DNA of 64,000 nucleotides, taken from positions 24,800 through 88,799 of IMG/VR virus record IMGVR_UViG_3300016478_000063; one strand, written 5' to 3'. This stretch comes from a virus (Duplodnaviria; Caudoviricetes). The notes beneath the pieces are model-generated. The model was given only the letters and a program-made list of their open reading frames with translations, ran no database searches and had not been told where the DNA came from. Shown here piece by piece: positions 8,308 to 48,794 of the stretch. A program made the position numbers and the translations under genes. Position 1 is the first letter of the stretch. Each line of letters starts with the position of its first letter.

Positions 8308-8508
8308 ATGACTAAGAAATTAGTATGGATTGTTGAGGATATTGAAACTGGTCAAGTGCGTTCTAATTGGTCAACAGGGACACGAATCTATTCACGAAAG
8401 AAGAATGCAGAAGCTGCTTTGAAGAAAGCTTGGTGGCGTACTGATATTCCTTCACCATATCGTATTGTAGAATATGAGCTTGTTCCTACGGAAAAGGAGA
8501 AGGAATGA
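8308..8508 (+). CDS. hypothetical protein
   Basis: SD GAGGA; 66 aa. Confidence 0.55.
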   Translation: MTKKLVWIVEDIETGQVRSNWSTGTRIYSRKKNAEAALKKAWWRTDIPSPYRIVEYELVPTEKEKE

Positions 8509-8561
8509 CTAAGCAATACACAGCACTGATTGATATTAGGTTTAGGGGTACATATGGGTAG
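8505..8561 (+). pseudogene. orphaned 5' end of the exonuclease gene (MTKQYTALID...)
   Basis: SD AAGGAG and ATGA overlap; 18-codon ORF whose first 10 residues resemble the first beta strand and catalytic Asp of 5'-3' exonucleases (compare MKKLLVVD at 9246). Confidence 0.5.
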
Positions 8562-9249
8562 GAAACTAGATTTAGCAGGTAAAAAATTTGGTAGACTTCT
8601 AGTTATTTCAGAAGCGCCTAAGCACATAATGCCTTCAGGCTACAAAGCTAGGAAGTGGAATTGTATTTGTGACTGTGGTGCAGAAAGAGAAGTTTTTCAG
8701 AATTCACTAACGACAGGTGTCACTCAGTCTTGTGGCTGTTTCCGTATTGAGCAACTTCCAAGCAATCGTGATTCTGCAAAAGGTTTGAGAACAGGTTGTG
8801 ACCGAAGCGACCCTCGGTATAATGTTTGGAGCATGATGATTCAGAGGTGTTATGAAAAGAATCATGACTCATATGAAATATATGGAGGTGTTGGTAAACT
8901 GGTCTGCGAACGCTGGTTGGAGAAGTATGCTGTTGGTTTTAAGAATTTTTGTGAAGATATGGGTGAACGTCCAGAAGGGTTCAAATTGGATCGTATAAAC
9001 AATGATCTTGGATATTCCCCTGAAAACTGTCGCTGGGTCGCAGACAAAACTTCTGTAATAAACAGGGGATTGAGTCGCAATAACACGTCTGGAGTTAAAG
9101 GTGTGACATGGCACGAGCATTGCGGTCGTTGGTGTGCTCAGATTGGTGTTGACTATTCAAACGTAGTTTTAGGATACTACGAAGATTGGTTTGAAGCCGT
9201 GTGTGCCAGAAAATCTGGAGAATTGGTTTATTTCAAGGGGTTGCTATGA
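8554..9249 (+). CDS. HNH homing endonuclease with AP2 domain
   Basis: DLAGKKFGRL...CICDCG...TQSCGC...KLDRINNDLGYSPENCRW...NNTSGVKGVTW. Confidence 0.85.
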   Translation: MGRKLDLAGKKFGRLLVISEAPKHIMPSGYKARKWNCICDCGAEREVFQNSLTTGVTQSCGCFRIEQLPSNRDSAKGLRTGCDRSDPRYNVWSMMIQRCYEKNHDSYEIYGGVGKLVCERWLEKYAVGFKNFCEDMGERPEGFKLDRINNDLGYSPENCRWVADKTSVINRGLSRNNTSGVKGVTWHEHCGRWCAQIGVDYSNVVLGYYEDWFEAVCARKSGELVYFKGLL

Positions 9250-10202
9250 AAAAACTATTAGTTGTTGATGCGGATACGATATTACATGCTTCATCAGCCC
9301 AACAGCAGCTCAATAAATGTCTAGCTACAAACATTGAATACGGCTCACAACGTCTATTTGAATCTAAGACAGCCTTTAATGATTGGGCTAAGGAGAATAA
9401 CAGAGACAAAGCAAACTACTCATTTGAAACAGTATCAGAAATCAAACCAGATGCAGAACCACGATTTGCTTTTCAAGCGATCAAGCAGAAGGTGGACAAG
9501 ATTGTTGAAGCTGCTAAGTGTGATGATTATGTTCTCTGCATCGAAGGTGAAGGGAACTTTCGTAAAGACTTCAAGTCTAGGTTCGTAGACTACAAAGGAC
9601 AACGTAGTGAAAAACCAATTCTGTTTGAAGAATGCAGAGAGTTCTTTCTGAAGAAATACAAAAAGAAAGTGATCCTTTCTGAAGGGCGAGAAACTGACGA
9701 CACTTGTAACATCATGGCTTGGGAAAGCTACAACAAAGGTGTTAGTTCTAAGGATAAGAGTAAGTGTAATGTTGTTCTGGCATACTGTGATAAAGACCTA
9801 AAAGCCAACAGTCGTGGCTGGATGCTCAACTACAACAAGCTGGAAGAGGGAATCTTCTGGAATGATGCTTTCACACAGTCCTATAACTTTGCTACACAGC
9901 TTCTGATTGGAGACAGTGCAGATAACATTCCGGGCATTGAAAAGCTTTCCAAGATTACGAAAGAGCGATTCAATATCAAAGTGGAAGGTGTTGGCCCTGC
10001 TACGGCTAAGAAGATTCTTGCTGATTGCAAGACAGAAGTTGATTTAGCCAGTAGGGTGTATGAGTGCTATTCTGCAATGTATGGTGATGAAGAAGGTTGG
10101 GAAGAACGTCTGTATGAAAATGGATTCTTCTTGTATTTGCTTAGATATGAAAATGATAAGTGGGATTTGGATAGGTATCTGAGAGGGACAATTTATGAAT
10201 AA
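9246..10202 (+). CDS. 5'-3' exonuclease (FEN/T5 D15-like)
   Basis: LVVDADT, ETDD, DKDL and GDSADNIPG...VGPATA motifs. Confidence 0.85.
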   Translation: MKKLLVVDADTILHASSAQQQLNKCLATNIEYGSQRLFESKTAFNDWAKENNRDKANYSFETVSEIKPDAEPRFAFQAIKQKVDKIVEAAKCDDYVLCIEGEGNFRKDFKSRFVDYKGQRSEKPILFEECREFFLKKYKKKVILSEGRETDDTCNIMAWESYNKGVSSKDKSKCNVVLAYCDKDLKANSRGWMLNYNKLEEGIFWNDAFTQSYNFATQLLIGDSADNIPGIEKLSKITKERFNIKVEGVGPATAKKILADCKTEVDLASRVYECYSAMYGDEEGWEERLYENGFFLYLLRYENDKWDLDRYLRGTIYE

Positions 10203-10404
10203 GGTTGCAGGTTATTGCATTATTGACACAGAAACTGGTGAACGCTGGGGTGATCTTTATGAATCTCAAGCAGGTGCTAAGTCTAGTTTTAATAGTTGGG
10301 TAAAACAGCGAAACTATTACAGAGATAACGTGCAACCCAAGTTCAATGAGCAAACTCAGTATGTAATCAAACCAGTATGGTTGCTAGATGACAGTCCCAA
10401 CTAA
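10195..10404 (+). CDS. hypothetical protein
   Basis: 69 aa, overlapping starts and stops with neighbours. Confidence 0.5.
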   Translation: MNKVAGYCIIDTETGERWGDLYESQAGAKSSFNSWVKQRNYYRDNVQPKFNEQTQYVIKPVWLLDDSPN

Positions 10405-10969
10405 AGCAGACTTAGACAAACGAGAGAAGAAACTAAAAGAGTTCTTGAAAAATCTAGATCAATCTGGTAAAGGCAAGGAAGCCAAGATCATTGGAGTTGT
10501 TCGTAGTGCTATTCGCAGTGCTTGGCTAAAATCCGACACTAAGTTGGCCTATCTCTATATGAACACAATCCCAGATATGGATGATTCAACAAGAACTAAA
10601 TGGCTTTGGAAGTGTGAGATTTGTGGAGAACTATTTCAACTAAAAGACATTAACGTAGACCACAAGTGGGGCAACCATGCTTTCACAAAGCTTGAAGACT
10701 TCCCTAATTATTTCAAAAATATTCTTATGGTTGGGTTTGACGATCTTCAGATTCTGTGTAAGAATGACCATGATATCAAAACGCTGGGGGAGTCTATGGG
10801 AGTTTCTTTTGAGATTGCTTCTTATCACAAAATAGCGATTGATTTACAACGTAAAAAGCTTGATAAAGAATGGTTAGCATCTAAAGGTGTTGTTGCAGCT
10901 AAAACTAAAGATGCTCGACGTGAACAGATTGTTGAAATATTGAAAGAGGAGAAAGAGAATGTGGAGTAG
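10388..10969 (+). CDS. HNH/endonuclease VII-like nuclease (probable resident resolvase)
   Basis: KCEICG...VDHKWGNH...LQILCKNDHDIKT; located beside the exonuclease. Confidence 0.65.
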   Translation: MTVPTKADLDKREKKLKEFLKNLDQSGKGKEAKIIGVVRSAIRSAWLKSDTKLAYLYMNTIPDMDDSTRTKWLWKCEICGELFQLKDINVDHKWGNHAFTKLEDFPNYFKNILMVGFDDLQILCKNDHDIKTLGESMGVSFEIASYHKIAIDLQRKKLDKEWLASKGVVAAKTKDARREQIVEILKEEKENVE

Positions 10970-20203: not shown

Positions 20204-20797
20204 ATGATTCGTGGTAAAAAGTTAGTTTATGGGGTTGGGATAAACGATGCGGATTATCCCGTAACCAAGTATAGCTTACATGAAGGAAAGAAAGTACAAA
20301 CATGGGTGTGTCCATTCTATAAAAAGTGGAGAAGTATGTTACAGCGTTGTTATGACCCAAAGAATATCAACAGGCAGCCAGCGTACATCAGTTGCTTTGT
20401 ATGGGAAGGGTGGCACACTTTCTCTAGCTTCAAATCTTGGATGGAACAGCAGGATTGGGAAGGGAAAGAGCTAGACAAAGATTTGCTAGGAGATGGAAAG
20501 CTATACTCCCCTATCAACTGTTGCTTTCTTTCCCCGGATTTGAACAAGTTCTTATTAGATAGATTCGCTGCTAGAGGAGAATATCCGATAGGCGTTTCGT
20601 GGCATAAAAGGAGAAACAAGTTTCAAGCCAGTTGTAAAAATCCTCTTACAAAGTCTCAAGATTATCTCGGACTGTTTTCTTGCCCTAATGAGGCTCACCT
20701 TGCATGGAAGAAGAGAAAAAGAGAGTTAGCTCTTATACTTGCAGACCAACAAAATGATATTAAAATAGCCAATGCACTCCGCTCTTTATTCCTTTAA
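20204..20797 (+). CDS. free-standing HNH homing endonuclease (family A)
   Basis: YGVGINDADY...CPFYKKWRSMLQRCY...ELDKDLLGDGKLYSPINCCF. Confidence 0.82.
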   Translation: MIRGKKLVYGVGINDADYPVTKYSLHEGKKVQTWVCPFYKKWRSMLQRCYDPKNINRQPAYISCFVWEGWHTFSSFKSWMEQQDWEGKELDKDLLGDGKLYSPINCCFLSPDLNKFLLDRFAARGEYPIGVSWHKRRNKFQASCKNPLTKSQDYLGLFSCPNEAHLAWKKRKRELALILADQQNDIKIANALRSLFL

Positions 20798-21178: not shown

Positions 21179-21493
21179 TTACTTCTTCTCTAGGTAGAAT
21201 GTAAGAATCTGTCTAACGTCTGCTCTAACAGCCTCTGTCTGATTTTTTACATCGGCACGGAGGGCTTCATTACCAGCGGTAAGTCTAGTCTCTAGTTCTT
21301 TAAGCTCTTGTTTAGTTACAGAAGTGCGATAAAGCTCTAAAACTTTAGTATTCAGGTCTTTAATTTCTGTTTTATATTCTGCCTTGTCTGCCCAATATTG
21401 TGTTTGGGCAAGAGCCAGCAAGAGCATTAGAAGACCAATAGCAGCCCTCTCAAATAAATTGTTAATGCGGTGATTCGCGTTTTCAATCGCCAT
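21179..21493 (-). CDS. membrane protein (holin/antiholin-like, putative)
   Basis: One TM helix AAIGLLMLLLALA plus coiled coil; follows the spanins. Confidence 0.45.
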   Translation of the reverse strand: MAIENANHRINNLFERAAIGLLMLLLALAQTQYWADKAEYKTEIKDLNTKVLELYRTSVTKQELKELETRLTAGNEALRADVKNQTEAVRADVRQILTFYLEKK

Positions 21494-21596
21494 CTTTAAA
21501 CAGAGCCTCTATCTTTTGGTTATAATCTTTTTGTTTTTCCAATAGAAGCCTATACTCCCCAACACAGGATGTGTTCTTTACATATCCCCGAGCTAA
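21483..21596 (-). pseudogene. orphaned 3' end of the o-spanin gene
   Basis: LARGYVKNTSCVGEYRLLLEKQKDYNQKIEALF matches the intact o-spanin C-terminus at 20/35 aa; its stop overlaps the ATG of the next gene. Confidence 0.85.
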
Positions 21597-21602
21597 CAAG
21601 TC

Positions 21603-21632
21603 TTGACAACCATGTATGTTTTCGAATAATAT
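21603..21632 (+). promoter_or_regulatory. sigma70-like promoter of the antisense HNH cassette
   Basis: TTGACA, then AATAAT/TAATAT 16-18 bp downstream; SD AGAGGA before ATG 21665. Confidence 0.55.
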
Positions 21633-21664: not shown

Positions 21665-22330
21665 ATGAAAATTGTTCAAACTGTCGGCATAAACGATGCT
21701 GATTACCCAGTAAGCCAATCAGTGAACGGAAAGAGGCAGATTTGCCCATTTTATAAGGTATGGACGGGTATGCTTACTAGGTGCTATAATCTAAAATTTA
21801 AAGAAAGGCGGCCGACCTATAAAGATTGTACCGTGTGTGAGGAGTGGTTGACATTCTCCACATTCCGTTCATGGATGGAGTCTCAGCCTTGGCAAGGTAT
21901 GCGACTTGACAAGGATTTGACGTTTATGGGCAACACCCACTACAGTCCACACACCTGTGCATTTATCCCAAACTGCATAAATTGTATTTTGGGAACCTGT
22001 AAAGCATCTCGCGGGGAACACCCTGTGGGTGTTTCTAAGGAAAAAATTGCCAAAGATATGGTGAACTACCTCAAAAATCCTTTCAGAGCGGAAGTACAAA
22101 CCTTGAATGGAAAACGAAAGCACTTGGGTATGTACTCCACAGCAGCAGAGGCACACGCTGCATGGCAAAAGGGAAAAATAGATGTTATCCGAGAGTATAT
22201 TTTGTGGTGGGAGTTTGATCCATCTGTTAATCAAACTTTTAATACAACAATCGCTGATAATCTATTAGCTATCGCAGAGAAAATAGAACAAGATTTACGA
22301 AAAGGCGTGGAGACATTATCCTACTTTTGA
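21665..22330 (+). CDS. HNH homing endonuclease (family A), antisense insertion in the lysis cassette
   Basis: TVGINDADY...CPFYKVWTGMLTRCY...RLDKDLTFMGNTHYSPHTCAF. Confidence 0.85.
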   Translation: MKIVQTVGINDADYPVSQSVNGKRQICPFYKVWTGMLTRCYNLKFKERRPTYKDCTVCEEWLTFSTFRSWMESQPWQGMRLDKDLTFMGNTHYSPHTCAFIPNCINCILGTCKASRGEHPVGVSKEKIAKDMVNYLKNPFRAEVQTLNGKRKHLGMYSTAAEAHAAWQKGKIDVIREYILWWEFDPSVNQTFNTTIADNLLAIAEKIEQDLRKGVETLSYF

Positions 22331-22593
22331 TACAAGTTTAAAACTTTTTCGTTGTACTGTCTCTGCTTTTCTAACAAAAGCCTATATTGTAATATACAAG
22401 ATGTGTTTATAACATAGGCTTTCGCTAACCTACGCACAGTATCCCCTGCACCTATTGCTTCACAAGGGATAACTAAAAGACTATTAGGGATTTGTACAGG
22501 CACGTCCTTTTGAATGTAAACAACTTTCGGAGAGCATCCTAACAAGATCATCAGGCAACTTACGATCAAGGATGCTTTGAGAATGCAATTCAT
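22321..22593 (-). CDS. o-spanin (Rz1-like lipoprotein)
   Basis: Lipobox LLGC, Pro-rich linker, overlaps the i-spanin 3' end. Confidence 0.8.
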   Translation of the reverse strand: MNCILKASLIVSCLMILLGCSPKVVYIQKDVPVQIPNSLLVIPCEAIGAGDTVRRLAKAYVINTSCILQYRLLLEKQRQYNEKVLNLYQK

Positions 22594-25738: not shown

Positions 25739-26092
25739 TTATGCGTCTGGTGCTACTGGACGCTTATCTTTATTCGGGAAACCCTCAGACTCAGGATAAC
25801 TTCTCAGAGCCTTTCTATATTCACGCCATTGTGCTACAGAACCAACAGCTTTGGGGTCACTGTCCTGAACTTTATAAAGTTCAATATCAGCACGAAGAAG
25901 CTCTTTATCCCTCCACATCCGCTCTTGAACTTCTAAGTTTGTACTTACCATGTTGAGATGCTTAGTGACAGCATCTGCATCCATCGCTACAAGGTCATGC
26001 TTGCCGTACTTATTACGGTCTTTTTCTGTTTCATAGGCGAAAACTTCGCCTTTTGCGTTCTTGAAGTAGATCATTAGCGTAGCTCCAACCAT
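25739..26092 (-). CDS. tail fibre assembly chaperone
   Basis: YFKNAKGEVFAY...ERMWRDKEL...WREYRKALRSYPESEGFP...RPVAP. Confidence 0.7.
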   Translation of the reverse strand: MVGATLMIYFKNAKGEVFAYETEKDRNKYGKHDLVAMDADAVTKHLNMVSTNLEVQERMWRDKELLRADIELYKVQDSDPKAVGSVAQWREYRKALRSYPESEGFPNKDKRPVAPDA

Positions 26093-26943
26093 TTACGAAG
26101 ATTGACACCACCGCTTGAGGCGAGTCTATAAGTATTGTTAGCAGGGATAATCGGGGAAAATAGTATAGGTGTCCCGTCCCCACCAACAAGGTCAGTGACT
26201 GTCCAAGTTATCCCATTGATGTCGAACGTAAGGCTCCCAACACTCCCGGAGTCCCGCACATCAACCATTAACTGAATGGGGCGGTCAGTTGTATTTGTAT
26301 AAGTTGTGTTAAGAGCACGACTTGCTGTTAAGTCTTGCCATGTTTGATTGATCCCTAATACTTTAGAATCCGCCCACTCCTTTGTACGTAATGGCGTCAT
26401 CAGTGTATTATTAACTACACCCGCTTGGGCTTGAGCTGTGGACGCTACTGTAGTACGGGCGTCCACTTCTGCTTTAGTGTAAGTCTGTGCTTGAGAATAT
26501 ACACTGATGTTATTACGGAATGTAGCAGCATTAGCAATATCACTACCATTAGCTGCTTTACTTAGGAAAGCCCCATTCACTTCTGCTTTAGTGTAGAAGT
26601 CTCCAGCAGAAGCAAATGCAATAATCCAATAAGTATTGCTTAGGTCTGTTTCTGGGTTCTGGTTGGTATGTGTTTGTACACAGCGGTACACAGTGCCGTT
26701 GGTTGGGCCTTGTACATAAGATTTATTAGCTTGGTATTCTGTTGTAGCATCCCACACAGCAACACCGTGTTGGTTGATGTGAGCGATTGCGGTATCCTGA
26801 CGATTATCAAGATAGTTGAACCATTGACGAGGTGGAATTTCAACAGTCCAGCCTGTAGCATATTTCGTATTACCTGGGTCAAGTACATCCCCACCAGAAG
26901 CCCAAGTCAGGCTAAGGTTGGAGGGTTTTAGAATTTGTGGCAT
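26074..26943 (-). CDS. tail fibre protein
   Basis: WASGGD...KYATGW..EIPPRQWFN anchor; C-terminal QTWQDLTASRALNTTYTNTTDRPI knob. Confidence 0.75.
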   Translation of the reverse strand: MPQILKPSNLSLTWASGGDVLDPGNTKYATGWTVEIPPRQWFNYLDNRQDTAIAHINQHGVAVWDATTEYQANKSYVQGPTNGTVYRCVQTHTNQNPETDLSNTYWIIAFASAGDFYTKAEVNGAFLSKAANGSDIANAATFRNNISVYSQAQTYTKAEVDARTTVASTAQAQAGVVNNTLMTPLRTKEWADSKVLGINQTWQDLTASRALNTTYTNTTDRPIQLMVDVRDSGSVGSLTFDINGITWTVTDLVGGDGTPILFSPIIPANNTYRLASSGGVNLRKWLELR

Positions 26944-33937: not shown

Positions 33938-34690
33938 TTACTCTTGATCGTAGTGTGGTTTAACTTCATAATTAAGGATGGAGTTATATGTAGTTTCTTT
34001 TAAATATGGCTTGTATTCGAAAGCAATGAGTTTGATCTTGTCCTCAACAAACATTTTAACTGCCATCCACGCATCATCGGGGTTACTATAGACCCCGAGA
34101 TAGGTATTCTTACCCCTAATAGAAGAAACAGCTTGAAACGATCCACCGGGAAGTAATGACACACCTCTTGGGTATTTTGAGTTTGATACTCTCTTCTTCC
34201 TTAGAATAACATTTAACTCTTTTGGGAGGTAGCAGCAAGTTTGCGGGGAATATAGTTTACCGTTCCCTAATAAATCCTTGTCAAGCTCCCAACCCTCTAT
34301 AAAATTTTCGGAGTGCCATTTAGCAAAATTCTGAAAGTTATGCCACTCTTGACAAACAATTACATTTTCATAAGACTTCTGTTTATTTTTACCATAACAC
34401 CTGTTCATCATTGCAGACCAAGCGTTATAACACTGTGTGATTTTACCACCTGAAACAGAAGAACTGTGCGGCCCCTGTCCAATAAAGCCTACGCCGAAAA
34501 CCGAGGGGAAGTTAGGATTCTTAACAGACCCTAATTTAAAATCAGATGCCCGTGTCCTAACTTTCGTACCATCTTCAAACGTAACCTCAACGTCTAAAGC
34601 CCCTGTATAGAGAGATACGGTACATGTTCCTGTACTGGTAGTAACAGTATCCCCAACAAAAACAGACTGTTTCGGGCCTTTCTTATTCAA
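33938..34690 (-). CDS. free-standing HNH homing endonuclease (family A core)
   Basis: WSAMMNRCY...VCQEWHNFQNFAKW...WELDKDLLGNGKLYSPQTCCY; start TTG 34690 after AAGGAG. Confidence 0.8.
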   Translation of the reverse strand: MNKKGPKQSVFVGDTVTTSTGTCTVSLYTGALDVEVTFEDGTKVRTRASDFKLGSVKNPNFPSVFGVGFIGQGPHSSSVSGGKITQCYNAWSAMMNRCYGKNKQKSYENVIVCQEWHNFQNFAKWHSENFIEGWELDKDLLGNGKLYSPQTCCYLPKELNVILRKKRVSNSKYPRGVSLLPGGSFQAVSSIRGKNTYLGVYSNPDDAWMAVKMFVEDKIKLIAFEYKPYLKETTYNSILNYEVKPHYDQE

Positions 34691-34721
34691 AAGATTTCTC
34701 CTTCTGCAAATGTGAGGACTA

Positions 34722-34750
34722 ATTATACAGGTTTTAATATAAGAAGTCAA
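34722..34750 (-). promoter_or_regulatory. sigma70 promoter of the HNH gene
   Basis: TTGACT-17 bp-TATAAT; the -35 overlaps the upstream gene's stop codon. Confidence 0.75.
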
Positions 34751-35917: not shown

Positions 35918-38900
35918 TATTGTCCTCCAGAATATCCGTAAGATGTGAGGGTTTGCTGTAGTTTGTCATCCAGCATTTTTACAAAGCTGTTAGCAACATC
36001 CTCTGTCTTCTCTGCTGTAATGTTAGCGTCAAGTTTAACTTCAACCTTCATAACACCAGGAAGTTTTGTACCATAAGCATCCATGTTCCGCTGCATCATA
36101 GACTCCTGAGCCATGTTTTTAGCATTCTCATCGTACATCTCAGGTGTCCAGCCATACATCCCGCTGGAAGGATTATTAAGAGCATTACGCTTCTTTTGTT
36201 CTTGATCAAAAGGTTTTAACCCGGTACTAGCTGTATTCGCTAAAGGATCATAACCCAAGCCTCTGCCGATCATTCCAGCAGGACCGTTACGAATACCAAT
36301 AGAAAGGGCTTGCTTTAACCCTTCGCCCGCACCAGAAAAATCCCCACTGGCCAGTTTGTTTATAGACTGTAAGGTGATCAGAAGGGAGGTTTGTATCTCT
36401 TTGAGTGTATTCAGTACAGTCTGGAGTGCTCCTGATTCTTTGAAAAGATCGAAAAGCATCTTCCATCCTTCATAGGATTTGACCCTAAGCTCTCCAACTT
36501 CTTTAAGAATATCTCTGATGTTAAACATCATTTGCATGATTGTTTCACCAGTCTCTCCTTGACCAAACAACCACTTCTGAAAGTTGCTATCCCTCCCATC
36601 AAACATACGTCCAATAGATTGAGGTAAAAGAACCATCTGCCTAAAGAAGTAAGTTCCTTTATCAAACATCTCTCCGAGATTAGGCATTATTCTATCCATT
36701 TCTCGCATAGCGTCAGTTGCTGTACGCCACAAACGAGCAAAGCCTGTTTCACCACCAGCTTTAGAAAAGCTCTCTAACATCTGAGTTTGCATATTCTGTG
36801 AACGGGCTTGTTCCGCGATAGATGATTTCTTCATAACATCAATCTTGGGCGCTGCGCGTTCACTTAGGATTCTTGCAACAATAGGGAGAATTTTAGCTGA
36901 TTCAATGTTCCCTTTTTCAATATCCTCATAGAATTTGGCATGAGCTTCTTGTCCAACCAACCCGCTACCTGTCATTTCTGCATAGGACTCTGCGAATACG
37001 TCCATCGTCGTTTATGTTCAGGGAGGGGCGTTAATCCCTCCCCCGCTTTATTCAAGCTGCTTATGCTTTCACATAAGACCAGATCATATCACAATCCTAA
37101 AATATAGGATTCCTACCGTTTCGCTTCACTTGAAGCTACGTCCGAAGACTGATCGTTGAACGTTACCCTTAAATGTTTAAAAGTCTTCCCAGCTTTGATA
37201 TTACTTACAGTGTGTCTATTAACACGTGGATGATTCATGCAGTCAACAATATCTGTTATCGAAAGGTTGTTCTCGATAAGTTCTAATATTTTAAGAACAA
37301 GATCATCAGTAATTTTAGGCTTAGTTTTACTAAAATTAAAATCTTTTGAAACCTCTTGCCACGTTCTGCGAGATTTAACAGAATAAACTACAGAAAGATT
37401 TACACCAGTTTTTCTGGATATTTCTCTGCAATTAAAACCATCAACAAGCATTTGGCAGACAGTCATTATCTCACCATTGGTATAGGTTGAAACAAAAGCA
37501 TCTTCTGCTTTTGGGAAATTTCCTGCCTCTACCCCATGAGTTGAGTTTTCTTGTGCTGTAACCCATTCTAAGTTACCAATAGAATTGTTAGTTCTATTAG
37601 AATCTATGTGATTCACGAAAGGTTTGTTTGAGGGGTTTGGTACAAAGACCAGTGCTACAGCCCTGTGGACATATATTCCACGAAGCTTAGAACCATCCCA
37701 AACTTTACAACGAAAATAACCGTCTTTATCTTTAAAAGGTTTATAAATACTTTTAGTAAAGCTACTACGAATCTGCCCAAGCTCATTCACTTCTGCAAAT
37801 TCATAATTTGGAACAACATAAAACATTTCGACCTCCTTGGTTAAAGAAGATCGGGTCTTCGCTGCGGATTACCCAATCTTGATTTCTTAAATCGCAAGTG
37901 TACCACACTTTTAAGAAAATGCAAGCTCTAAGGGCTTTCCCGCAATTAGATAGGTTTGCTATCACCATTACTGGCGAAAGGGGCTACAAATTAACCCGGC
38001 ATTGATTCGGCCATCTGCCGCCGCACTTCCTCCATACTAAGGACACCTTTCGTTTATGTTCAAGGGTGGTCGTTAATCACCCCCCGCTTTATTCAAGCTG
38101 CTACATGTTTCCATGCAGACCAGACCATATCTTCACTTAAAATCAGTGCCTACCGTTTCGCTTCACTTGAAGCTACTCTACTCCATTCAGATAAATCTGT
38201 GTTTCGATGGTCGTTGGGGGCGAGGCGTTTTATGCCTATCCCTGCTGATTGCCCAATTCTTCCGATTGTTACTGCCTTTAGGCTAGTACGAAAGACTCTA
38301 AGGGGTTTCCAGCATATTGTAGGTTTTAGTTGAGCTGTTATGTTAACCCAACATCTGCGAGAGGGCGTTTTGTACTAACTTACGTCTTGCTGGAGTTACA
38401 CCCATTGCAGTTTGGTACTCAGAGAAGCCTTTAAAAATATCTTGACTCTGCTCTACACCAAGACCCGCACCCAGTGAGTTTGAAAGGAATTGGTTGTAAT
38501 CTGGCAAGGCTTCCATGTAGTTGAAACCAACGTCATTAGCCAAACCAAACAACCACTTATTAGCATCAACACCTTGCTGCGTACTGTACCCCTTAGCTGC
38601 TAACACAGCTTGAGTTGTAAGTTGTCCAGAGATTAGTTCTTGGTTTGCTGTGTTCAATGAACCAAGACCATAAACACCACCAACAAAAGGAAGGCTTGCT
38701 ACACCATAACGAGCAAGAGCACCGCCAGCACCGCCAGCATGTAGGAAATTAGCTCTTGAAAAAGAAGAATCACTTCTTGTTTGTTTTGTTGTAGCCGAGC
38801 CTACTGCTTGCTTCACTGGTGCCATTCGGGGTGTCAAGCTGACTTGCTTATTAGCTTGGTTAATTGCTTGCCTGATTGCGGAAGAGACTTGACCGGCGAG

Positions 38901-39765: not shown

Positions 39766-40780
39766 TTATTCCTCAGAATTGAAAATAACCCCTCCAAACG
39801 AGGAGTAAATTTGTTTTATTTTGTCTATATTAAAACTAAAAAGTCGTCTCTGTGTAGCCGTCTGGCATTTCACTTCTAAGAAGAACGCCACACTCCAACT
39901 TTTTCTTACATGCTCTTTCGGCATTTTTACAAGATTCAACGTCAGGAAACTTATATGTTAAATAATTTTTTATTTTGTATATTGACCTAGAGTTTTGTCC
40001 TTTAATTCTCTGCCTACTATCCCTTGCAATACCAAACTTTATGGCTACAATACTTTCCGTAGAATCCATAACGAGATTAATATAAGCCTCTTGTTGTCTC
40101 ATCGGAGAGCATGCACAAGGTCTGTGACCTTTTCTTAAATCACCACTTATGGACTCTCCTACTTCACCGCATACTGGGCACAATGTATTCCAGTAGGCAC
40201 GCCAACCCAGATTATTTAGTCTGTCACTTCTCCAGAACTTGGTGTCGGGGTGGAAAGCTCCTGTATCTAAAAAGGCTGTAATCATTACATTATCAGGCGT
40301 CTTCTTTACTTCCTTCATATATTCGCGACGACATTCAGGGCAGCCTGTATCGTTATTAAGTAAATTACCAATTACCCCACTACTCCACTCTCCGTGTTCA
40401 TCACAAACCATCTTGAGTTTGGTTTTCCTACCACACCACTCCCCCATAAAACCTAGAAACTTGTAACCAAGTTCTTCAGCTTTACGTGAACACAACACAG
40501 CATATTGTTCCACAGACCGCCTAGGTGCTTTACTGCAACCGCAAGGAAGTTGTTTTGCTTTGAGAAGTTTTCTTTTTGAACTCTTAAAGTACCCTTCACC
40601 AAACAACTCAGTGTCTTTACAACAAAGTTCACACTTTACTATATAGTATTTATTATTTCCTGTTCTACCACTCCAACCTATAACAGTTAGCTGATTATCC
40701 TTCCCAAACCTAGGCTTACTCAAAGACCATTCGTCTTGTTGTAGTCCGTATTCGGGGTCAATTACATCTTCTAAATTCAT
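39766..40780 (-). pseudogene. Zn-ribbon + T5orf172/GIY-YIG-like homing endonuclease with a +1 frameshift near its 3' end
   Basis: CxxC repeats; IKFGIA...R...GYTET; ORF stops at TTT TAG (39836) while the +1 frame continues SFNIDKIKQIYSSFGGV. Confidence 0.6.
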
Positions 40781-42446: not shown

Positions 42447-44818
42447 TCACACACGGGCTACGCCACGGATGATGACTTTACGAACCGAGCCTGCAAGCCG
42501 GAACGCGATAAGGAAGTCACCCATCAGCCGTTGAGCACGTTGAACTTCTGGAATTGCCAGAGGATCAGGAGCTACTACCGTATATGGAGTGTCGTCAGCA
42601 ATACCACCATTAGCCACGCCTTGACTCATGACAGTGCGAATGTCATTTTCAATAATTGTGGCCCCGGTGCGCGTGAATGGGATTTTTTTCACATTAACCA
42701 TGCGGAAAAACACAGATTCTTCCAAACGAGTGATCAGCCACAGGATGAATACTGATTCCGTTTATGTTCACACAAGATCGTTACTCTTGTACTGCTTTAG
42801 GTTTCGTTGTCCACCCATTTTTATTTCCTTTGCACCAGCTCTCAACAATGTAAGGCTCTACATTACCGTAATACTTTGCTGCAAAGATAGGGCTTTCAAA
42901 CTCTAAACCTTCTGGAGATATGAATATACTTTTACTTCTTGAAGAGGTCATGTGCAGGAACTCTTCATTTCTTTCTGCATTTATAATCAAAGAGTCACTA
43001 AACTCTCTTGAAACCTGTTTCTTCTTTTCTGCGCTCGCTTGCACTGCTTTAAGCATCTGAGCATACCCTTTCTCAGTGGCTCTGTATTCAATCATTTGAG
43101 CGCGTTTAATTTCCTTCCATTCCTCAGAACGTTTTTGACCTGTCCACGCTTCTCTTGCAAGTTTTGCATACTCTTTGATAAGACCAGAGGAAACTTTATA
43201 ATCGTTTAGCTCTTTAAGTTTCCTTTGCCGCTCTGGTGTGTTAGCAAGCAACCTTATCCTTTCTAATAAACCAGACTCAACATTAGCTAAACCTCTAGCT
43301 ACCTTCTGATCCACTGTTTGTCCACGCATCATTACCCAAGCCATATAGTCAGACGCCCTTTTATACGCCTTCCACAACAACCTGTGTGCAAAAACATGCT
43401 GTCTGTAATCTAACCTTATAAGGTTTTCTTTTGAATCATCGCCTCCTGCATGGCGAGGAATGATGTGGTGGACTTCTGTATAAGTTCCTTCATCAAACAC
43501 TTGATTCTTGTATTTTTCTATAAATGCAAAATAAAGTTTTTCGTAATTCATTGTATCTCCAAGCTACTTACGCTTTCACGTAAGACCAGACTATATCTTC
43601 ACCTTTCTTTTCAAGTTAAGGTGCTCCCCATTTCGCCTCACTTGAGGCTACGGCATCACTGCCTAGTCGTTGAACCTTCCCCTCATCAGGGCTTGGCTGC
43701 TGATTGCCACATAATATGTTGTTTTCAAACATTCACGCTTAACTATATCTCAAGTTTACGTTGTAGTCAACATATCTTCGCGGGTTTCCAGCAATTAAAG
43801 GAGTTATTCAAAAGTCATTTCTGACTTAGGCGACTTGTTTCAAATCGATAGGAGCACCACTAACCATGTTACCATCTTGGAAAACTTCAACACCAGCTTT
43901 ACGGGTATAGAAGTTGCAGTTTTTACTACGCAGGTTAGTTTTCTGAGTCTCGGTTAGACGATCAACAGTAATACCAGTTGCAGTTTTTAGGTTCCAATCA
44001 TTAGAACCCGGAACTTCTGGGAGTTGGCTACCAATCCACGCACATTCAGGGTACTGAGTGGCTGCATTCTTACTGTAGATAAGGAATGTCTGGTCATAGT
44101 TAAGATCACTAAGAGCCGTGGCTACGTCAGTGATTTGAGTGGTAGGAACATCTGCATCAGCAGTTGCGGCACCATAAATCTTACGGCGAGCTTGAATGGC
44201 AGCAGCAATCTCAAGAATGTCAGCTTTAACGCGAGTCTCGGTAGTCAAAGCAAACCACTGATCATTTACATCTTCAACAGCATCAATCGTGTCTGTCCAA
44301 GTCTCTGTAGGTGCCGCATCTTGCTTAACAAGGTTAGAAGATACTCGTACTGACCAATCGCTACCCGGAGTAGCAGGAGCAATAGTAAGACTGCCGGTGT
44401 TGTCTGTTACGTTAATACCTGCAACAGTACCAATAGTCAGATCAAGACCAGTTGCAATTTCATCTGCTGTAGCATTGGCATCTGAAGTGTAGCTATAGTC
44501 CACTTCATTGATGGTTACAACATAGGTTGCATTATTAGCCACTGTTGGTGTGATAGTGACGCTATCAACTTGGCGACGGCCTACTACAACAGAAGCAGGT
44601 TTTAGTTCTTGACCAAATAAGGTCTGAACCATTTTATATACAACATCTGAACTATCGAAATCTTCTGCAATACCTGTAATACTTGTGTATACACGAGCAC
44701 GCTCAGGGAAGTTTGTAAACGCAGCCATTACACATGGAATGTCAAAGCTGGCTGTATCAATAGCAGACGTTTGTTTGTCGATAAATACCTCGACAACATC
44801 TGACAAGTTATTTGCCAT
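42447..44818 (-). CDS. tail sheath protein, two exons: 44818-43844 and 42758-42447 (428 aa spliced)
   Basis: Joining gives GAPID|ESVFILWLITRLEESVF, the conserved sheath ID..W motif, then KIPFTRTG; exons of 975 and 312 nt are in frame. Confidence 0.9.
42781..43551 (-). CDS. intron-encoded HNH homing endonuclease (MobE-like N-terminus)
   Basis: EVHHIIPRHAGGDDSKENLIRL..RQHVFAHRLLWKAY. Confidence 0.85.
   Translation of the reverse strand: MNYEKLYFAFIEKYKNQVFDEGTYTEVHHIIPRHAGGDDSKENLIRLDYRQHVFAHRLLWKAYKRASDYMAWVMMRGQTVDQKVARGLANVESGLLERIRLLANTPERQRKLKELNDYKVSSGLIKEYAKLAREAWTGQKRSEEWKEIKRAQMIEYRATEKGYAQMLKAVQASAEKKKQVSREFSDSLIINAERNEEFLHMTSSRSKSIFISPEGLEFESPIFAAKYYGNVEPYIVESWCKGNKNGWTTKPKAVQE
43742..43770 (-). 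promoter_or_regulatory. promoter inside the P5 extension of the sheath intron
   Basis: TTGACT-17 bp-TATAGT. Confidence 0.65.
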
Positions 44819-45889: not shown

Positions 45890-46261
45890 TTAGTTAGGTG
45901 TGCGTGGCTCTCTGGCAGCCATTGCACGATAATGGTCAAGAGTTCCCATCTGGTAACGCCTAACCTTCATCACTCGATACCAATCACCATTCCATTGAAA
46001 GCGATCTGCATCCCAACCCCCTGTACCTTCCTTAGTAGCTTTAATCTCAGAAACAGAGTAGATTTTGTACCACTCCTTGCTACGCTCAGATTCAGGGAAC
46101 AGCATGAGTTCTTCGTCTTTTACAGGTTGGATGTTTGCTTGGATAACTACATCTGATGTAGTAGCGTCTTGCCATACACCATCAACATAGCCACCTACTG
46201 TGGATGGTCTTTTAAGTGTGAGAGGGATTGTTTTGGTTAAGAGAAACTGTGGTTGTAGCAT
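45890..46261 (-). CDS. head closure/stopper protein
   Basis: G.YVDGVW...IQANIQP...L..PESER...D.FQWNG.WYRV. Confidence 0.65.
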   Translation of the reverse strand: MLQPQFLLTKTIPLTLKRPSTVGGYVDGVWQDATTSDVVIQANIQPVKDEELMLFPESERSKEWYKIYSVSEIKATKEGTGGWDADRFQWNGDWYRVMKVRRYQMGTLDHYRAMAAREPRTPN

Positions 46262-46274: not shown

Positions 46275-46385
46275 TTAACACCCACAGGTATTTGAATTGA
46301 ATGGATCAGAATAAAATAAACCACTCCCATCACAAACTCTTACTCTTGTTAGAGAAGGACGAACATTATCTGGATTATTGTTATT
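46275..46385 (-). pseudogene. orphaned 3' end of the head-tail adaptor gene (not in ORF track)
   Basis: NNNNPDNVRPSLTRVRVCDGSGLFYSDPFNSNTCGC* versus the adaptor's NNANPDNIRPELTKIRVCSIDKTFFGC*; followed directly by the RBS of the next gene. Confidence 0.85.
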
Positions 46386-47397
46386 AGAACAAACACTTCT
46401 CTTCATGTTCTTTATACCTCTCATATTTTCTTTTTAGTTTAAAGTCAGAGTCTTCGTAAAGAATAGAAAGAATAGTCAATGCTTTTGAACCATAAACACC
46501 AATACGGTACAGGTCATTCCCTTTACTTTTAATTATTTTTGGAAGTTTTTCAAAAGTTACAAGGTTTTTACAAAAGTCTAAAAACTGCTCACAAATTATA
46601 GAACTTCCGCACAGAGTGACACAGGTAGTATTCTTAGGGTGACCAACATGGCCATCACCATCAATCACACCGCGCCAAAAGTGACGGTCGCTTAAAAATT
46701 CTTCGGGACAGACTTCCTTCATGGATTTTCTTGGAGTAAGACCTAAACTTCGTAAATCTGAAGATATATCATCGGATTTAAAATGCAATCTTGAGGATAG
46801 ATAAGTCTTTCCTGTCCTGCTGTCGAACCTAGAGTAATCTTTCACTTCATTCTTGAGGCACAGGAAATTCCTCAGTTCTTCAAGAATGTGTCGGTCGGTT
46901 TGCTTGAGTCTTATCTCAACAGTACCGTCATCCCATAGACAACCATCGGTTAGTAGTAATCCGTAGAAGTAAGACCTTTGCTCGGACGGTACACTAAAAG
47001 CTGCGTTATTCAGTCCGAATACAGCCTTCATTTTAATACCGAGGTTTGTATCCTTCCCAAACTTATTATGCAGTAAAGCAAGTACAGATTTGTAGTCTAT
47101 TTCTAACTTACTAGCTATCTCTGTAGAATTATACCCACTCTCCCACAAAGAGAGTATTTCTGGGAACAAAGACTCATGAATATTTCTAGAAAGTCTTTTA
47201 GTGTCAAGACGAAAATCTAAGAACCTTTCAAATATGTATGTATGAGGAACAGCAAAGTCTTTAGCTATACTTTGGAGTGTCTCGCCATCTCTGTACCTTA
47301 AATAACAACTCATCAACCAAGTTTCGCCGCCTAGCGCCTCAAATCTTGGTTTTGCCTTCTTACTGATTCCGACGTAACTTTTAACTTTGTATCCCAT
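46384..47397 (-). CDS. free-standing double-motif LAGLIDADG endonuclease
   Basis: YFYGLLLTDGCL and HFWRGVIDGDGHV motifs; N-terminal HTH repeats. Confidence 0.85.
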   Translation of the reverse strand: MGYKVKSYVGISKKAKPRFEALGGETWLMSCYLRYRDGETLQSIAKDFAVPHTYIFERFLDFRLDTKRLSRNIHESLFPEILSLWESGYNSTEIASKLEIDYKSVLALLHNKFGKDTNLGIKMKAVFGLNNAAFSVPSEQRSYFYGLLLTDGCLWDDGTVEIRLKQTDRHILEELRNFLCLKNEVKDYSRFDSRTGKTYLSSRLHFKSDDISSDLRSLGLTPRKSMKEVCPEEFLSDRHFWRGVIDGDGHVGHPKNTTCVTLCGSSIICEQFLDFCKNLVTFEKLPKIIKSKGNDLYRIGVYGSKALTILSILYEDSDFKLKRKYERYKEHEEKCLF

Positions 47398-47422
47398 TCA
47401 CAACCCCTTCTTTAAATATTAG

Positions 47423-47451
47423 ACATTAACAGCCAAAGAAGGTTTTGTCAA
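47423..47451 (-). promoter_or_regulatory. sigma70 promoter encoded in the adaptor's replacement 3' end
   Basis: TTGACA-17 bp-TAATGT; spacer CCTTCTTT pairs with the SD region AAAGAAGG. Confidence 0.6.
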
Positions 47452-47845
47452 TAGAGCATACTCTAATTTTAGTAAGTTCTGGACGGATGTTATCAGGATT
47501 AGCGTTGTTGGCTTCCCAATCAATTTTACTAATCCCAGCAGCATATGGCATAAGACCATTTGGCAGTGTTGCAGAACTTGTATCTTTAATTAGATTCTCA
47601 AGAGCTTTTAGGTATTGCGTAGAGAGATTTGACCATATTTCGATGTCACCTACCCTCTCGCGCGATGTCCAACCAGCTAACTGCATAGAAGCAGCAATAG
47701 CAGCAAGCCTTGCAGCTTGCATAACATTCCCACCAGTCATATCTAGGAATGCTTGAATTTCATTGTCTGTGAACAGTTGATAAAAAGGGCTACCTTCTGT
47801 ATCACCAATGAGCACCCTCACCTTTTCCACATCAGTCAATGCCAT
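47426..47845 (-). CDS. head-tail adaptor (head completion) protein
   Basis: VRVLIGDT...LFTDNEIQAFL...; position after the major capsid gene. Confidence 0.7.
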   Translation of the reverse strand: MALTDVEKVRVLIGDTEGSPFYQLFTDNEIQAFLDMTGGNVMQAARLAAIAASMQLAGWTSRERVGDIEIWSNLSTQYLKALENLIKDTSSATLPNGLMPYAAGISKIDWEANNANPDNIRPELTKIRVCSIDKTFFGC

Positions 47846-48794
47846 GATATTTCTCCAAATATACTTGATATTTTCTGGACAGTTTGTAATTACACTCTTT
47901 GTAAATTTCGTCCAGAATTTTCTTTATTTGGTATTTGGAGGAAACATAACCCACATGCATTTTTCCATTCAGTGTAACCTTTGGTGTGTACTCCGGGCAA
48001 ATTGTTGCACAGTAACAAGCAAATGACTCTGCTAATTCTTTTCCGCCGCATACCTCAAGTCTGAATGAATTTTTAGCAATGTGGCCGTCGCCTTCAATAA
48101 CTCCTCGCCAAAAATGTCTGTTGAATGCTAGTTGTTCAGGACATTTTTCGTTTAAGGATTTTTTAGCATCAAACCCAAAAGCTTTAAGTCTTTCGAGAAT
48201 GGTTGCATGGGAGAATGCAAAAGAACTTTGGTGGTAAGTATTCCCTGTCCTGCTATCTACTCTAGACCTTCTACGAATTGTATTAGAACTTTGTAAGTAG
48301 TTCTTAAGATTTAGTAAAATCTCTTCATCTTGCGATGATAATTCAAGAGAAACCGATTTTTTAGAAAGACAACCATCGGTCAGCAGCCATCCATAAAAAT
48401 AAGCGCACGCTTCCTCATTTACATCAGAAAAAGCTTCTTCGTTGATAGTATATCCTTTATAGAATTTAATATCTTCCTTGCTGCGTATTTCAACACCTCT
48501 TTTACGAAGTATCGTAAACGCAGTATCTTTGGAACAAGGTAAATCTTTACATATAGCAGGAACAGATTCACCGGACAGATACCTTAACTCAAGGCTATCA
48601 ATTTCAGATTGTGATAGAATACAAAAATCTTTCTGGAAAGAGAACCCAACTTTTTTCATTTGCCAAGACAAGGCTGCTGGTTTTACTCCAAGAATTTCTG
48701 CAATTTCATTTCTGCGTTTACCTTCACTGGAAAGCTTCTTAACTAACTCAGTGTCAATGAGGATACGAATTTTTTCAATATCTGTTAAAGCCAT
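47832..48794 (-). CDS. free-standing LAGLIDADG endonuclease fused to the old adaptor N-terminus
   Basis: YFYGWLLTDGCL and HFWRGVIEGDGHI motifs; begins MALTDIEKIRILIDTE versus the adaptor's MALTDVEKVRVLIGDTE. Confidence 0.87.
   Translation of the reverse strand: MALTDIEKIRILIDTELVKKLSSEGKRRNEIAEILGVKPAALSWQMKKVGFSFQKDFCILSQSEIDSLELRYLSGESVPAICKDLPCSKDTAFTILRKRGVEIRSKEDIKFYKGYTINEEAFSDVNEEACAYFYGWLLTDGCLSKKSVSLELSSQDEEILLNLKNYLQSSNTIRRRSRVDSRTGNTYHQSSFAFSHATILERLKAFGFDAKKSLNEKCPEQLAFNRHFWRGVIEGDGHIAKNSFRLEVCGGKELAESFACYCATICPEYTPKVTLNGKMHVGYVSSKYQIKKILDEIYKECNYKLSRKYQVYLEKYHGID

What the first reader, a model, noticed from the sequence alone, without database searches (positions are those of the whole stretch)
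8505..48794. Recurrent 'gene-end replacement' by free-standing homing endonucleases, leaving orphaned termini
Seen: at four sites an endonuclease gene lies between two diverged copies of one end of an essential gene. These are the o-spanin 3' end (22428-22321 vs 21596-21483), the adaptor 5' end (48794 vs 47845), the adaptor 3' end (47426 region vs 46385-46275) and probably the exonuclease 5' end (8505 vs 9246). Protein sequence is conserved between copies while many third positions differ. Two rules are visible. In 5'-end insertions the nuclease reuses the resident RBS/start and supplies a new start for the host gene. In 3'-end insertions the cassette supplies a new 3' end and carries its own sigma70 promoter. 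Known: fungal mitochondrial HEGs duplicate displaced 3' ends (e.g. rps3), and phage HEGs are associated with diverged neighbouring alleles. Inference: this is a splicing-independent way to invade essential phage genes, in which the replacement end repairs the gene and destroys the cut site. It is used here by both HNH and LAGLIDADG families.
Basis: partly seen in the sequence, partly recalled or inferred. Interest (0 to 1): 0.88.

Follow-up and report, generated by a model that had tools for sequence, protein, structure and literature searches.

The report
Nuclease cassettes that replace gene ends
In this uncultured 89-kb phage, four selfish nuclease genes sit inside the ends of working genes, and each brought a substitute gene end and stranded the original end beside it. 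Close relatives with and without each insert confirm this splice-free way of invading coding DNA, which has so far been described mainly in fungal mitochondria.

Summary
Self-comparison detects three duplicated ends: o-spanin 3' end, head-to-tail adaptor 5' end and adaptor 3' end. Their flank-duplication scores are 114, 65 and 85, against a null median of 35. The exonuclease site is too diverged for self-comparison, but relatives show an 11-codon orphaned start at 8505-8537.

- Adaptor 5' end: 37/39 nt match the orphan versus 28/39 for the working copy.
- Adaptor 3' tail: 100/120 nt match the orphan.
- o-spanin tail: 94% identity to the orphan versus 59% for the working copy.

Metagenomic relatives show all four states at the adaptor gene: no nuclease, 5' only, 3' only, and both (this window). 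The replacement ends travel with their nuclease genes. The recoded start is 38/39 nt identical in another genome, and the short tail plus LAGLIDADG gene occurs in three adaptor backgrounds.

Best reading: these are mobile homing-endonuclease cassettes that carry a replacement gene end. This matches fungal mitochondrial "mORF gene hybrids" and partly the T4 MobA cassette. I found no phage paper that describes orphaned ends. Cut-site immunity and the "own promoter" rule remain unproven. This scan noted similar phage cases before.

The parts
22321..22593 (-). Working o-spanin gene (90 aa, lipobox LLGC). Codons 1-53 are native; the tail from about 22434 to 22321 is the imported replacement.
   Evidence: PHROG 456 Rz-like spanin. 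Against the nuclease-free relative L125, the first 159 nt are 156/159 identical and the last 111 nt only 66/111.
21665..22330 (+). Free-standing HNH endonuclease gene, convergent with the o-spanin gene. The two 3' ends overlap by 10 nt.
   Evidence: PHROG 953 HNH endonuclease, E 2.6e-81. Absent at this site from 7 relatives.
21603..21630 (+). Promoter-like site in front of the HNH gene, sitting on the cassette/orphan junction.
   Evidence: TTGACA-16-AATAAT, 11 of 12. This is a consensus match only.
21483..21608 (-). Orphaned native o-spanin 3' end. It still overlaps the start (21493) of the downstream gene 21179-21493.
   Evidence: 94% nt identity over 119 nt to the single o-spanin tail of L125. 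The same stop/ATG overlap with the next gene is seen in G008 and G001.
48747..48794 (-). Orphaned native adaptor 5' end (16 codons, one codon deleted), behind the native terminator hairpin and ribosome-binding site. It now serves as the start of the LAGLIDADG ORF.
   Evidence: 37/39 nt identical to the nuclease-free relatives L122/L123, versus 28/39 for the working copy. The first 15 nt are identical in six IMG/VR relatives.
47832..48794 (-). LAGLIDADG endonuclease gene (320 aa, two motifs, N-terminal HTH), fused in frame to the orphan start. Its stop overlaps the new adaptor start by 14 nt.
   Evidence: Pfam LAGLIDADG_3 and PHROG 4645. Same arrangement in L121; a 55% identical homologue is in L017.
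47426..47845 (-). Working head-to-tail adaptor gene (139 aa). It has a recoded start (47845 to about 47800), a native-like core and an imported short tail (about 47527-47426).
   Evidence: A profile of this family hits PDB 11bp_M 'Head to Tail protein gp72', E 4.5e-21. The start is 38/39 nt identical to L121's post-nuclease start, and the tail is 90/105 nt identical to L118's.
46384..47397 (-). Second LAGLIDADG endonuclease gene (337 aa) with its own ribosome-binding site. Its last codons and stop lie in the orphan sequence, in another frame.
   Evidence: Pfam LAGLIDADG_3 and PHROG 4645. 77% aa identical in L118 and 64% in L119/L120, always behind a short-tail adaptor.
46275..46397 (-). Orphaned native adaptor 3' end (about 40 codons, intact frame, ends CGC-stop), 13 nt before the head-completion gene 45890-46261.
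   Evidence: 100/120 nt identical to L121's contiguous native tail and 94/120 to L122's. The working tail aligns over only 56-57 nt.
8505..8537 (+). Orphaned native exonuclease 5' end (11 codons). Its ATG overlaps the stop of gene 8308-8508. The leftover 18-codon ORF stops at 8559-8561, overlapping the HNH ATG at 8554.
   Evidence: Homology to L112 ends at 8512 and to L115/L116 at 8533. The L115/L116 exonuclease starts with the same residues. Sequence read.
8554..9249 (+). Free-standing HNH endonuclease gene. Its stop overlaps the new exonuclease ATG (ATGA).
   Evidence: PHROG 374 HNH endonuclease, E 1.9e-72. Absent upstream of the exonuclease in 14 relatives.
9246..10202 (+). Working 5'-3' exonuclease (FEN-like). 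The whole gene is a different allele type from the one the orphan belongs to.
   Evidence: PHROG 107, E 1e-49. It is 81-86% nt identical to L032-L036 starting exactly at 9246-9249, but only about 55% identical to the exonuclease of L112/L114, which share the upstream gene at 89-93%.

Best explanation
Four free-standing homing-endonuclease cassettes (two HNH, two LAGLIDADG) have inserted within the first or last 11-40 codons of four phage genes: the 5'-3' exonuclease, the o-spanin and both ends of the head-to-tail adaptor. Each cassette consists of the nuclease gene plus a diverged copy of the gene end it displaces, so the host gene stays whole without any splicing. The native end is left beside the cassette as a non-functional orphan.

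The cassettes most likely spread as other free-standing homing endonucleases do. In a mixed infection the nuclease cuts the nuclease-free allele near the junction. Repair then copies the nuclease gene and the adjoining replacement end from the donor. Because the native end outside the junction serves as one homology arm, the orphan is carried over or regenerated.

At 5' ends the nuclease takes over the native ribosome-binding site and start codon, and its own 3' end supplies the new start region of the host gene. The synonymous recoding of the replacement end probably protects the carrier from self-cleavage and from loss by repeat recombination.

Shown: the anatomy, the polarity (the orphan is the native end), independent presence/absence of the cassettes, and co-inheritance of nuclease and replacement end. 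Inferred: cleavage, the homing pathway and cut-site immunity.
For: (1) The duplicated ends flank nuclease genes far above chance.
(2) Nuclease-free relatives have one end and it matches the orphan. Adaptor 5': 37/39 vs 28/39 nt. Adaptor 3': 100/120 nt full length vs about 41/57 partial. o-spanin: 94% vs 59%. Exonuclease start remnant.
(3) The orphans keep native junctions: the terminator and ribosome-binding site upstream of the adaptor, and stop/start overlaps with neighbouring genes.
(4) A 2x2 polymorphism exists at the adaptor gene: L122/L123 have no nuclease, L121 has the 5' one only, L118 has the 3' one only, and the window has both.
(5) The replacement ends travel with the nuclease. The recoded start is 38/39 nt identical in L121. 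The short tail plus LAGLIDADG gene is found behind three different adaptor cores: P0023, P0029/P0043 and P0099.
(6) Sequence identity breaks sharply at the cassette edges.
(7) The same architecture occurs in relatives at other places: L017 (adaptor 5', decayed orphan) and G001 (HNH after a MazG-like gene, score 88).
(8) The junctions are reproduced in independent assemblies (L118, L121, L124), so they are not assembly artefacts.
Against: No nuclease activity, target site or homing event has been observed. Immunity of the recoded ends is inference, and for T4 MobA polymorphisms alone did not block nicking (bioRxiv 10.1101/2022.08.31.505936). L119/L120 carry the short tail plus nuclease with no orphan, so the orphan is not an obligatory part of the element. 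At the exonuclease site the whole gene allele, not only its end, differs from the resident type; that fits general nuclease-bounded recombination as well as a compact cassette. Long duplicated flanks are absent from 11 of the 14 nucleases in the window and from 52 more distant nuclease loci.
Confidence: 0.78

Rival explanations
1. The duplications are one-off scars of illegitimate ('one-sided') double-strand-break repair. In this view each nuclease gene was intergenic in its donor. Homing into a diverged recipient used homology on one side and a non-homologous or microhomology join on the other, which happened to leave the recipient's gene end behind. The replacement end is then only co-converted flanking DNA, not part of a defined mobile unit.
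For: One-sided illegitimate repair during homing is established in T4 (review PMC2988022). The phage relatives here are very diverged: only about 12% of the genome aligns by blastn, so clean two-sided homology would often be lacking. At the exonuclease site the imported block is at least the whole gene. Most nucleases here lack duplications.
Against: The same junctions recur in diverged genomes. The window and L121 share the orphan-nuclease fusion and a 38/39 nt identical recoded start. The window and L118 share short tail, nuclease and orphan although the nuclease is only 77% aa identical. The short tail plus nuclease occurs in three adaptor backgrounds joined at or near the same point. Independent scars would not repeat like this. 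This rival is best seen as the origin of the cassettes rather than an alternative to them.
Confidence: 0.15
2. The interrupted genes are expressed by splicing. The nuclease genes would lie in group I introns or inteins, and the downstream 'orphan' would be the true final or first exon.
For: The same phage does use a group I intron carrying a nuclease gene in its tail sheath gene.
Against: Rfam finds only that one intron in 64 kb and none at the four sites. The duplicated coding segments would be redundant under splicing. The working copies are complete ORFs with their own stops or starts. The nuclease ORFs are out of frame or antisense to the host gene and show no Hint domain. L119/L120 have the short tail and no orphan at all.
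Confidence: 0.02
3. Each gene end was duplicated in tandem within this lineage, the copies then diverged, and a nuclease gene later landed between them. Alternatively the duplications are a metagenome assembly artefact joining two strains.
For: The copies are direct repeats in the same orientation, and the record is a metagenome assembly.
Against: Each orphan is 83-95% identical to the single native end of close relatives, while the working end is only about 60-70% identical. That asymmetry does not fit in-place divergence. The working ends are near-identical to nuclease-linked ends in other genomes. Independent assemblies from other samples show the same junctions.
Confidence: 0.03

Closest known systems
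Mobile endonuclease ORFs (mORFs) that create 'gene hybrids' in fungal mitochondria: Allomyces macrogynus atp6, and Glomus sp. atp6/atp9/cox2/nad3 (Beaudet et al. 2013, PMC3630166). C-terminal duplications of atp6 and cob next to LAGLIDADG/GIY-YIG ORFs in Endoconidiophora resinifera (PMC6279837).
   Same: An endonuclease ORF sits in the 3' end of an essential gene. The inserted foreign C-terminus is in phase with the gene core. The native C-terminus lies downstream and matches close relatives, while the two copies are only about 63% identical in DNA. More than one nuclease family is involved.
   Different: This case is in a bacteriophage, not an organelle. The 3' nucleases are not fused in frame to the host gene: one has its own ribosome-binding site and one is antisense with a promoter-like site. 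There is also a mirror-image 5' form, in which the nuclease takes over the native start and supplies a new one; I did not find that form in those papers. Here presence/absence of each cassette is seen among close relatives.
Phage T4 MobA / gene 39-gene 60 mobile cassette (Bonocora et al. 2011, as cited; survey in bioRxiv 10.1101/2022.08.31.505936)
   Same: A free-standing HNH nuclease is inserted inside an essential phage coding sequence without an intron or intein. The element carries its own diverged copy ('homR', 67-81% DNA identity) of the host segment at the cut site, plus new terminal extensions. It has inserted independently in several clades.
   Different: MobA splits the gene into two polypeptides, deletes rather than strands the native segment, and needs a translational bypass element for immunity. 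Here the gene stays in one piece, the insertion is at a gene end, the native end survives as an orphan, and nothing suggests bypassing.
Intronless homing by free-standing T-even nucleases (SegB, SegF, SegG, MobE; review PMC2988022), and nuclease genes at boundaries of genetic exchange in ICP1-like phages (Barth et al. 2023, PMC10448857)
   Same: Free-standing nucleases lie next to conserved genes, flanking markers are co-converted, translation overlaps neighbouring genes, and sequence affinity switches sharply at the nuclease gene. This is most evident at the exonuclease site.
   Different: Those elements are described as sitting between genes. Text searches of these papers found no orphaned or duplicated host-gene ends.

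Membership tests
Free-standing homing endonuclease gene (intronless homing) | Encodes a nuclease of a homing-endonuclease family and is not embedded in an intron or intein | tested here: met
   HNH (PHROG 374 and 953, E 1e-72 and 1e-81) and double-motif LAGLIDADG (Pfam PF14528, PHROG 4645). No intron at these sites.
Free-standing homing endonuclease gene (intronless homing) | Present or absent at the same site among otherwise close relatives | tested here: met
   2x2 matrix at the adaptor gene. Nuclease-free o-spanin (L125) and exonuclease loci.
Free-standing homing endonuclease gene (intronless homing) | Flanking donor sequence is co-inherited with the nuclease gene | tested here: met
   The recoded start is 38/39 nt and the short tail 90/105 nt identical between carriers. 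Identity drops from 98% to 59% at the o-spanin junction.
Free-standing homing endonuclease gene (intronless homing) | Site-specific cleavage of the nuclease-free allele and super-Mendelian inheritance in mixed infection | not testable with these tools
   Needs purified protein and phage crosses.
mORF-type gene hybrid (fungal mitochondria) | The inserted gene end is diverged from the native end, and the native end is retained beside the nuclease ORF and matches relatives | tested here: met
   compared with PMC3630166.
mORF-type gene hybrid (fungal mitochondria) | The endonuclease ORF is fused in phase with the upstream host gene at the 3' end, as in some of the described hybrids such as Glomus atp6 and nad3 (PMC3630166) | tested here: not met
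   The adaptor 3' nuclease starts 28 nt after the adaptor stop with its own ribosome-binding site. The o-spanin nuclease is on the opposite strand. In-frame fusion occurs only in the 5' form.
Group I intron- or intein-borne homing endonuclease | A ribozyme core or Hint splicing domains flank the nuclease, so that the host product is restored by splicing | tested here: not met
   The only Rfam hit is the sheath-gene intron at 43567-43853. Pfam gives no Hint domains. The duplicated ends make splicing unnecessary.
T4 MobA-type cassette | The insert carries a diverged homologue of the target segment | tested here: met
   The replacement ends are 61-69% identical to the orphans, compared with 67-81% for homR.
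T4 MobA-type cassette | The host gene is split into two polypeptides and a translational bypass element is present | tested here: not met
   All four host genes are single complete ORFs.

The most novel reading that the evidence does not exclude
Gene-end replacement may be a regular, splice-free invasion strategy of phage homing endonucleases, not a rare accident. Compact cassettes (nuclease plus recoded gene end) would home into coding sequence and regenerate an orphan each time. The 5' orphans would be exapted as the nuclease's translation start. As a by-product, the cassettes would shuffle functional protein termini between phage lineages, such as the cysteine-rich adaptor tail and the o-spanin C-terminus that must pair with the i-spanin. 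Selfish nucleases would then be a direct source of allelic diversity in structural and lysis proteins.
Probability: 0.35. Interest if true: 0.78.

Novelty: new variant of a known kind. Interest (0 to 1): 0.64.

Why it matters
Homing endonucleases are usually said to enter coding DNA only with an intron or intein, or else to stay between genes. This genome and its metagenomic relatives show a third route in phages, at four sites and in two nuclease families. Natural carriers and non-carriers define the cassette edges to within a few bases. That gives ready-made substrates for cleavage and homing experiments: native versus recoded junctions.

It also explains orphan gene fragments and odd short ORFs that confuse phage annotation. 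It shows how nucleases can swap protein termini and whole alleles between diverged phages. It links the phage and mitochondrial literatures on the same trick.

Tried and rejected
- Megablast of both regions against 50,697 phage records found nothing.
- Peptide-pattern scans of IMG/VR with the i-spanin and with the 3' LAGLIDADG found no relatives.
- The protein-database search with the o-spanin gave one short hit, probably because embedded spanin genes are rarely called.
- Self-alignment cannot show the exonuclease duplication; only relatives do.
- A score of 61 at nuclease 37113-37826 is an alignment through stop codons on the non-coding strand, so it is chance.
- Borderline flank scores of 51-57 in L063, L074, L079, G007 and G008 are low-complexity noise.
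- I considered that the whole working adaptor is foreign. Its core is about equally close (82-84%) to several lineages, and it is contiguous at 89% with L121, so only its two ends are imported.
- I considered that gene 8308-8508, which starts with the same 9 nt as the exonuclease of relatives, was an older orphan fusion. It is a conserved 66-aa protein family with 20 homologues, so I rejected this.
- The null distribution's single maximum of 100 was not inspected. Random windows can straddle the same duplications or paralogous HNH genes.


Full report
CONTEXT. The window is bases 24800-88799 of an 88.8-kb IMG/VR phage record rated complete. The nearest named phage is Pseudomonas phage vB_PsaM_M1, labelled Ounavirinae, with an adaptor 67% identical in protein. 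Related IMG/VR genomes are so diverged that blastn aligns only about 12% of the genome. The window is dense in nuclease genes, with at least 14: HNH, LAGLIDADG and other homing-endonuclease PHROG families.

THE OBSERVATION.
- On the minus strand the o-spanin (22321-22593) is followed by a convergent HNH gene (21665-22330, plus strand). A second copy of the o-spanin's last ~37 codons (21596-21483) follows and runs into the start of the next gene.
- The adaptor gene (47426-47845) is bracketed by two LAGLIDADG genes. The upstream one (47832-48794) begins with the adaptor's own first 13-16 residues. The downstream one (46384-47397) is followed by a second adaptor tail (about 46397-46275).
- I scored six-frame alignments of the two flanks of all 14 nuclease genes. 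The three sites gave 114, 85 and 65, against a null median of 35 and a 95th percentile of 46.
- The copies are 61-69% identical in DNA, and most differences are at third positions.
- The adaptor assignment is supported: a family profile hits the solved 'Head to Tail protein gp72', E 4.5e-21.
- The o-spanin has a lipobox and PHROG spanin hits. The exonuclease matches PHROG 107.

WHICH COPY IS NATIVE: ADAPTOR. Nineteen IMG/VR relatives have a single adaptor gene with no nuclease at its 3' end. The large protein collection then supplied much closer relatives, and their contigs give a natural 2x2 matrix.
- L122 and L123 have no nuclease at either end and a 148-aa adaptor.
- L121 has only the 5' LAGLIDADG, with the same fused orphan start, and a contiguous long native tail.
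- L118 has only the 3' cassette: short tail, a LAGLIDADG 77% identical in protein, and an intact orphan tail.
- The window has both.

DNA mapping shows the first 40 nt of the L122 adaptor aligning twice in the window, to the orphan and to the working start. Its tail region also aligns twice. Quantified:
- Native starts match the orphan at 37/39 nt (L122/L123) and 34/39 nt (L118), against 28/39 and 24/39 for the working copy.
- The working start is 38/39 nt identical to L121's post-nuclease start.
- Native tails match the orphan over their full length (100/120 nt for L121, 94/120 for L122) and match the working tail over only 56-57 nt.
- The working tail is 90/105 nt identical to L118's.
- The orphan start also keeps the conserved terminator hairpin and ribosome-binding site found downstream of the capsid gene in relatives.

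THE TAIL TRAVELS WITH THE NUCLEASE. All 139-aa short-tail adaptors found are followed by a 336-345-aa LAGLIDADG gene. They have three different cores: window-like (P0023), L007/L012-like (P0029, P0043) and L013-like (P0099). In L119/L120 the nuclease abuts the next gene and no orphan remains, so orphans can be lost. L017 carries a 55% identical homologue of the 5' nuclease. It shows the same overlap of nuclease stop and adaptor start. Just upstream lies a decayed 14-codon adaptor-like ORF that stops right at the nuclease start. This looks like an older instance at the same insertion point.

o-SPANIN. Six diverged relatives have one uninterrupted o-spanin and no nuclease there. A metagenome contig, L125, is decisive. 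Its o-spanin is 156/159 nt identical to the window's working copy over the first 53 codons and then only 66/111 nt identical. Its tail is 94% identical over 119 nt to the window's orphan. A second contig, L124 (98% identical), carries the window's replacement tail, which confirms the junction independently. The orphan retains the stop/ATG overlap with the downstream gene seen in G008 and G001.

EXONUCLEASE. Nine IMG/VR relatives lack the HNH gene upstream of the exonuclease. The small upstream gene (8308-8508) belongs to a conserved family. In five contigs its homologue is followed directly by the exonuclease with an ATGA overlap. In the window the same overlap leads into an 18-codon ORF. Its first 11 codons match the exonuclease start of L115/L116, and its stop overlaps the HNH start codon.

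The blastn boundaries are sharp. Homology to the relatives that share the upstream gene ends at 8512-8533. Homology to a different exonuclease allele type (L032-L036, 81-86%) begins exactly at 9246-9249. So at this site the nuclease marks a recombination boundary and the whole exonuclease allele was exchanged. The working start also lacks the second codon (Thr) that most relatives have.

HOW IT LIKELY WORKS. The anatomy fits mobile cassettes made of a nuclease gene plus a recoded copy of the displaced gene end, spreading by double-strand-break repair. Because the insertion point lies inside the coding region, the native end outside it acts as a homology arm and persists as the orphan.
- At 5' ends the nuclease is translated from the native start, by fusion or by stop/start coupling. 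The host gene restarts from a ribosome-binding site inside the nuclease's 3' end.
- At 3' ends the nuclease has its own ribosome-binding site (adaptor) or lies antisense with a good promoter-like site (o-spanin).
- One-sided illegitimate repair, known from T4 (PMC2988022), is the likely origin of such cassettes.
- Cleavage, the target sites and the immunity of the recoded ends are all inferred. For T4 MobA, polymorphisms alone did not confer immunity, so this step needs testing.

HOW GENERAL. Long duplicated flanks occur at 3 of 14 nucleases in the window and at 1 of 15 in three related complete genomes. That one is G001: an HNH after a MazG-like gene, score 88. They occur at 0 of 33 distant HNH loci and 0 of 19 distant LAGLIDADG loci. 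The scan misses short orphans: L017's scored only 42.

ALTERNATIVES. Rfam finds one group I intron in the window, in the tail sheath gene, and none at the four sites. Inteins, in-place duplication and assembly artefact are each contradicted, as set out under the rival explanations.

COMPARISON AND NOVELTY. The closest described system is the fungal mitochondrial mORF 'gene hybrid' (PMC3630166; PMC6279837). The closest phage precedent is the MobA cassette with its insert-encoded homologous region. My full-text searches found no phage paper describing orphaned gene ends beside free-standing nucleases; this search is limited to open-access text. Earlier notes of this scan report similar cassettes in two other phages and in archaeal tRNA genes. 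I therefore rate this as a new variant of a known kind. It is unusually well documented, with four sites, two nuclease families, both gene ends and natural carrier/non-carrier pairs.

Noticed in passing
window 42447-44818 (-): The tail sheath gene is split by a group I intron (Rfam RF00028, 99 bits, 43567-43853) that carries a homing-endonuclease gene (42781-43551). Exon 1 is about 44818-43854 and exon 2 ends at 42447. The same phage therefore uses both the intron route and the gene-end-replacement route.
   Followed up: partly
window, whole: There are at least 14 nuclease genes in 64 kb: 661-1254, 2999-3649, 8554-9249, 20204-20797, 21665-22330, 33938-34750, 37113-37826, 39836-40780, 42781-43551, 46384-47397, 47832-48794, 51664-52461, 55429-56481 and 58270-58896. 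Several lie between replication or virion genes, for example on both sides of the primase/helicase gene 1238-2989. Short orphans at these sites were not searched for with close relatives.
   Followed up: partly
L006:3291-4010: In another relative an unrelated endonuclease (PHROG 681/559) occupies the same capsid-adaptor gap. Its 3' end runs through the native ribosome-binding site and first adaptor codons, with no duplication. The site is a hot spot for different nuclease families.
   Followed up: partly
G001:C1:25849-26666 (L055): A fifth case is in a related genome. An HNH gene (25907-26575, minus strand) follows a MazG-like pyrophosphatase gene, and the gene's last ~26 codons are repeated downstream of the nuclease (score 88).
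   Followed up: partly
L119:2271-3308 and L120:1911-2948: The short-tail adaptor plus LAGLIDADG is present, but the nuclease abuts the next gene and there is no orphan tail. Either the orphan was deleted or the replacement was clean.
   Followed up: partly
window 21490 and L125:2526: Identity of 94% to L125 stops exactly at the start of the gene downstream of the orphan (21179-21493). That gene is only distantly similar in L125, so a second mosaic boundary lies next to the cassette.
   Followed up: no
window 51664-52461 (-): A homing-endonuclease gene lies between the portal and protease genes. M1 ('intron-associated endonuclease') and G001 (41% identical) have a nuclease gene in the same position, so this insertion appears older and shared.
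   Followed up: no
L124:1025-1059: This public metagenome contig ends in Illumina adapter sequence directly after the o-spanin replacement tail, so its last 35 bases are not phage DNA.
   Followed up: yes
adaptor C-terminal tails: The last 15-25 residues of this adaptor family are hypervariable and cysteine-rich, and most end in CGC. At least five tail types occur on near-identical cores, which suggests frequent tail exchange even without a resident nuclease (for example L014/L016).
   Followed up: no
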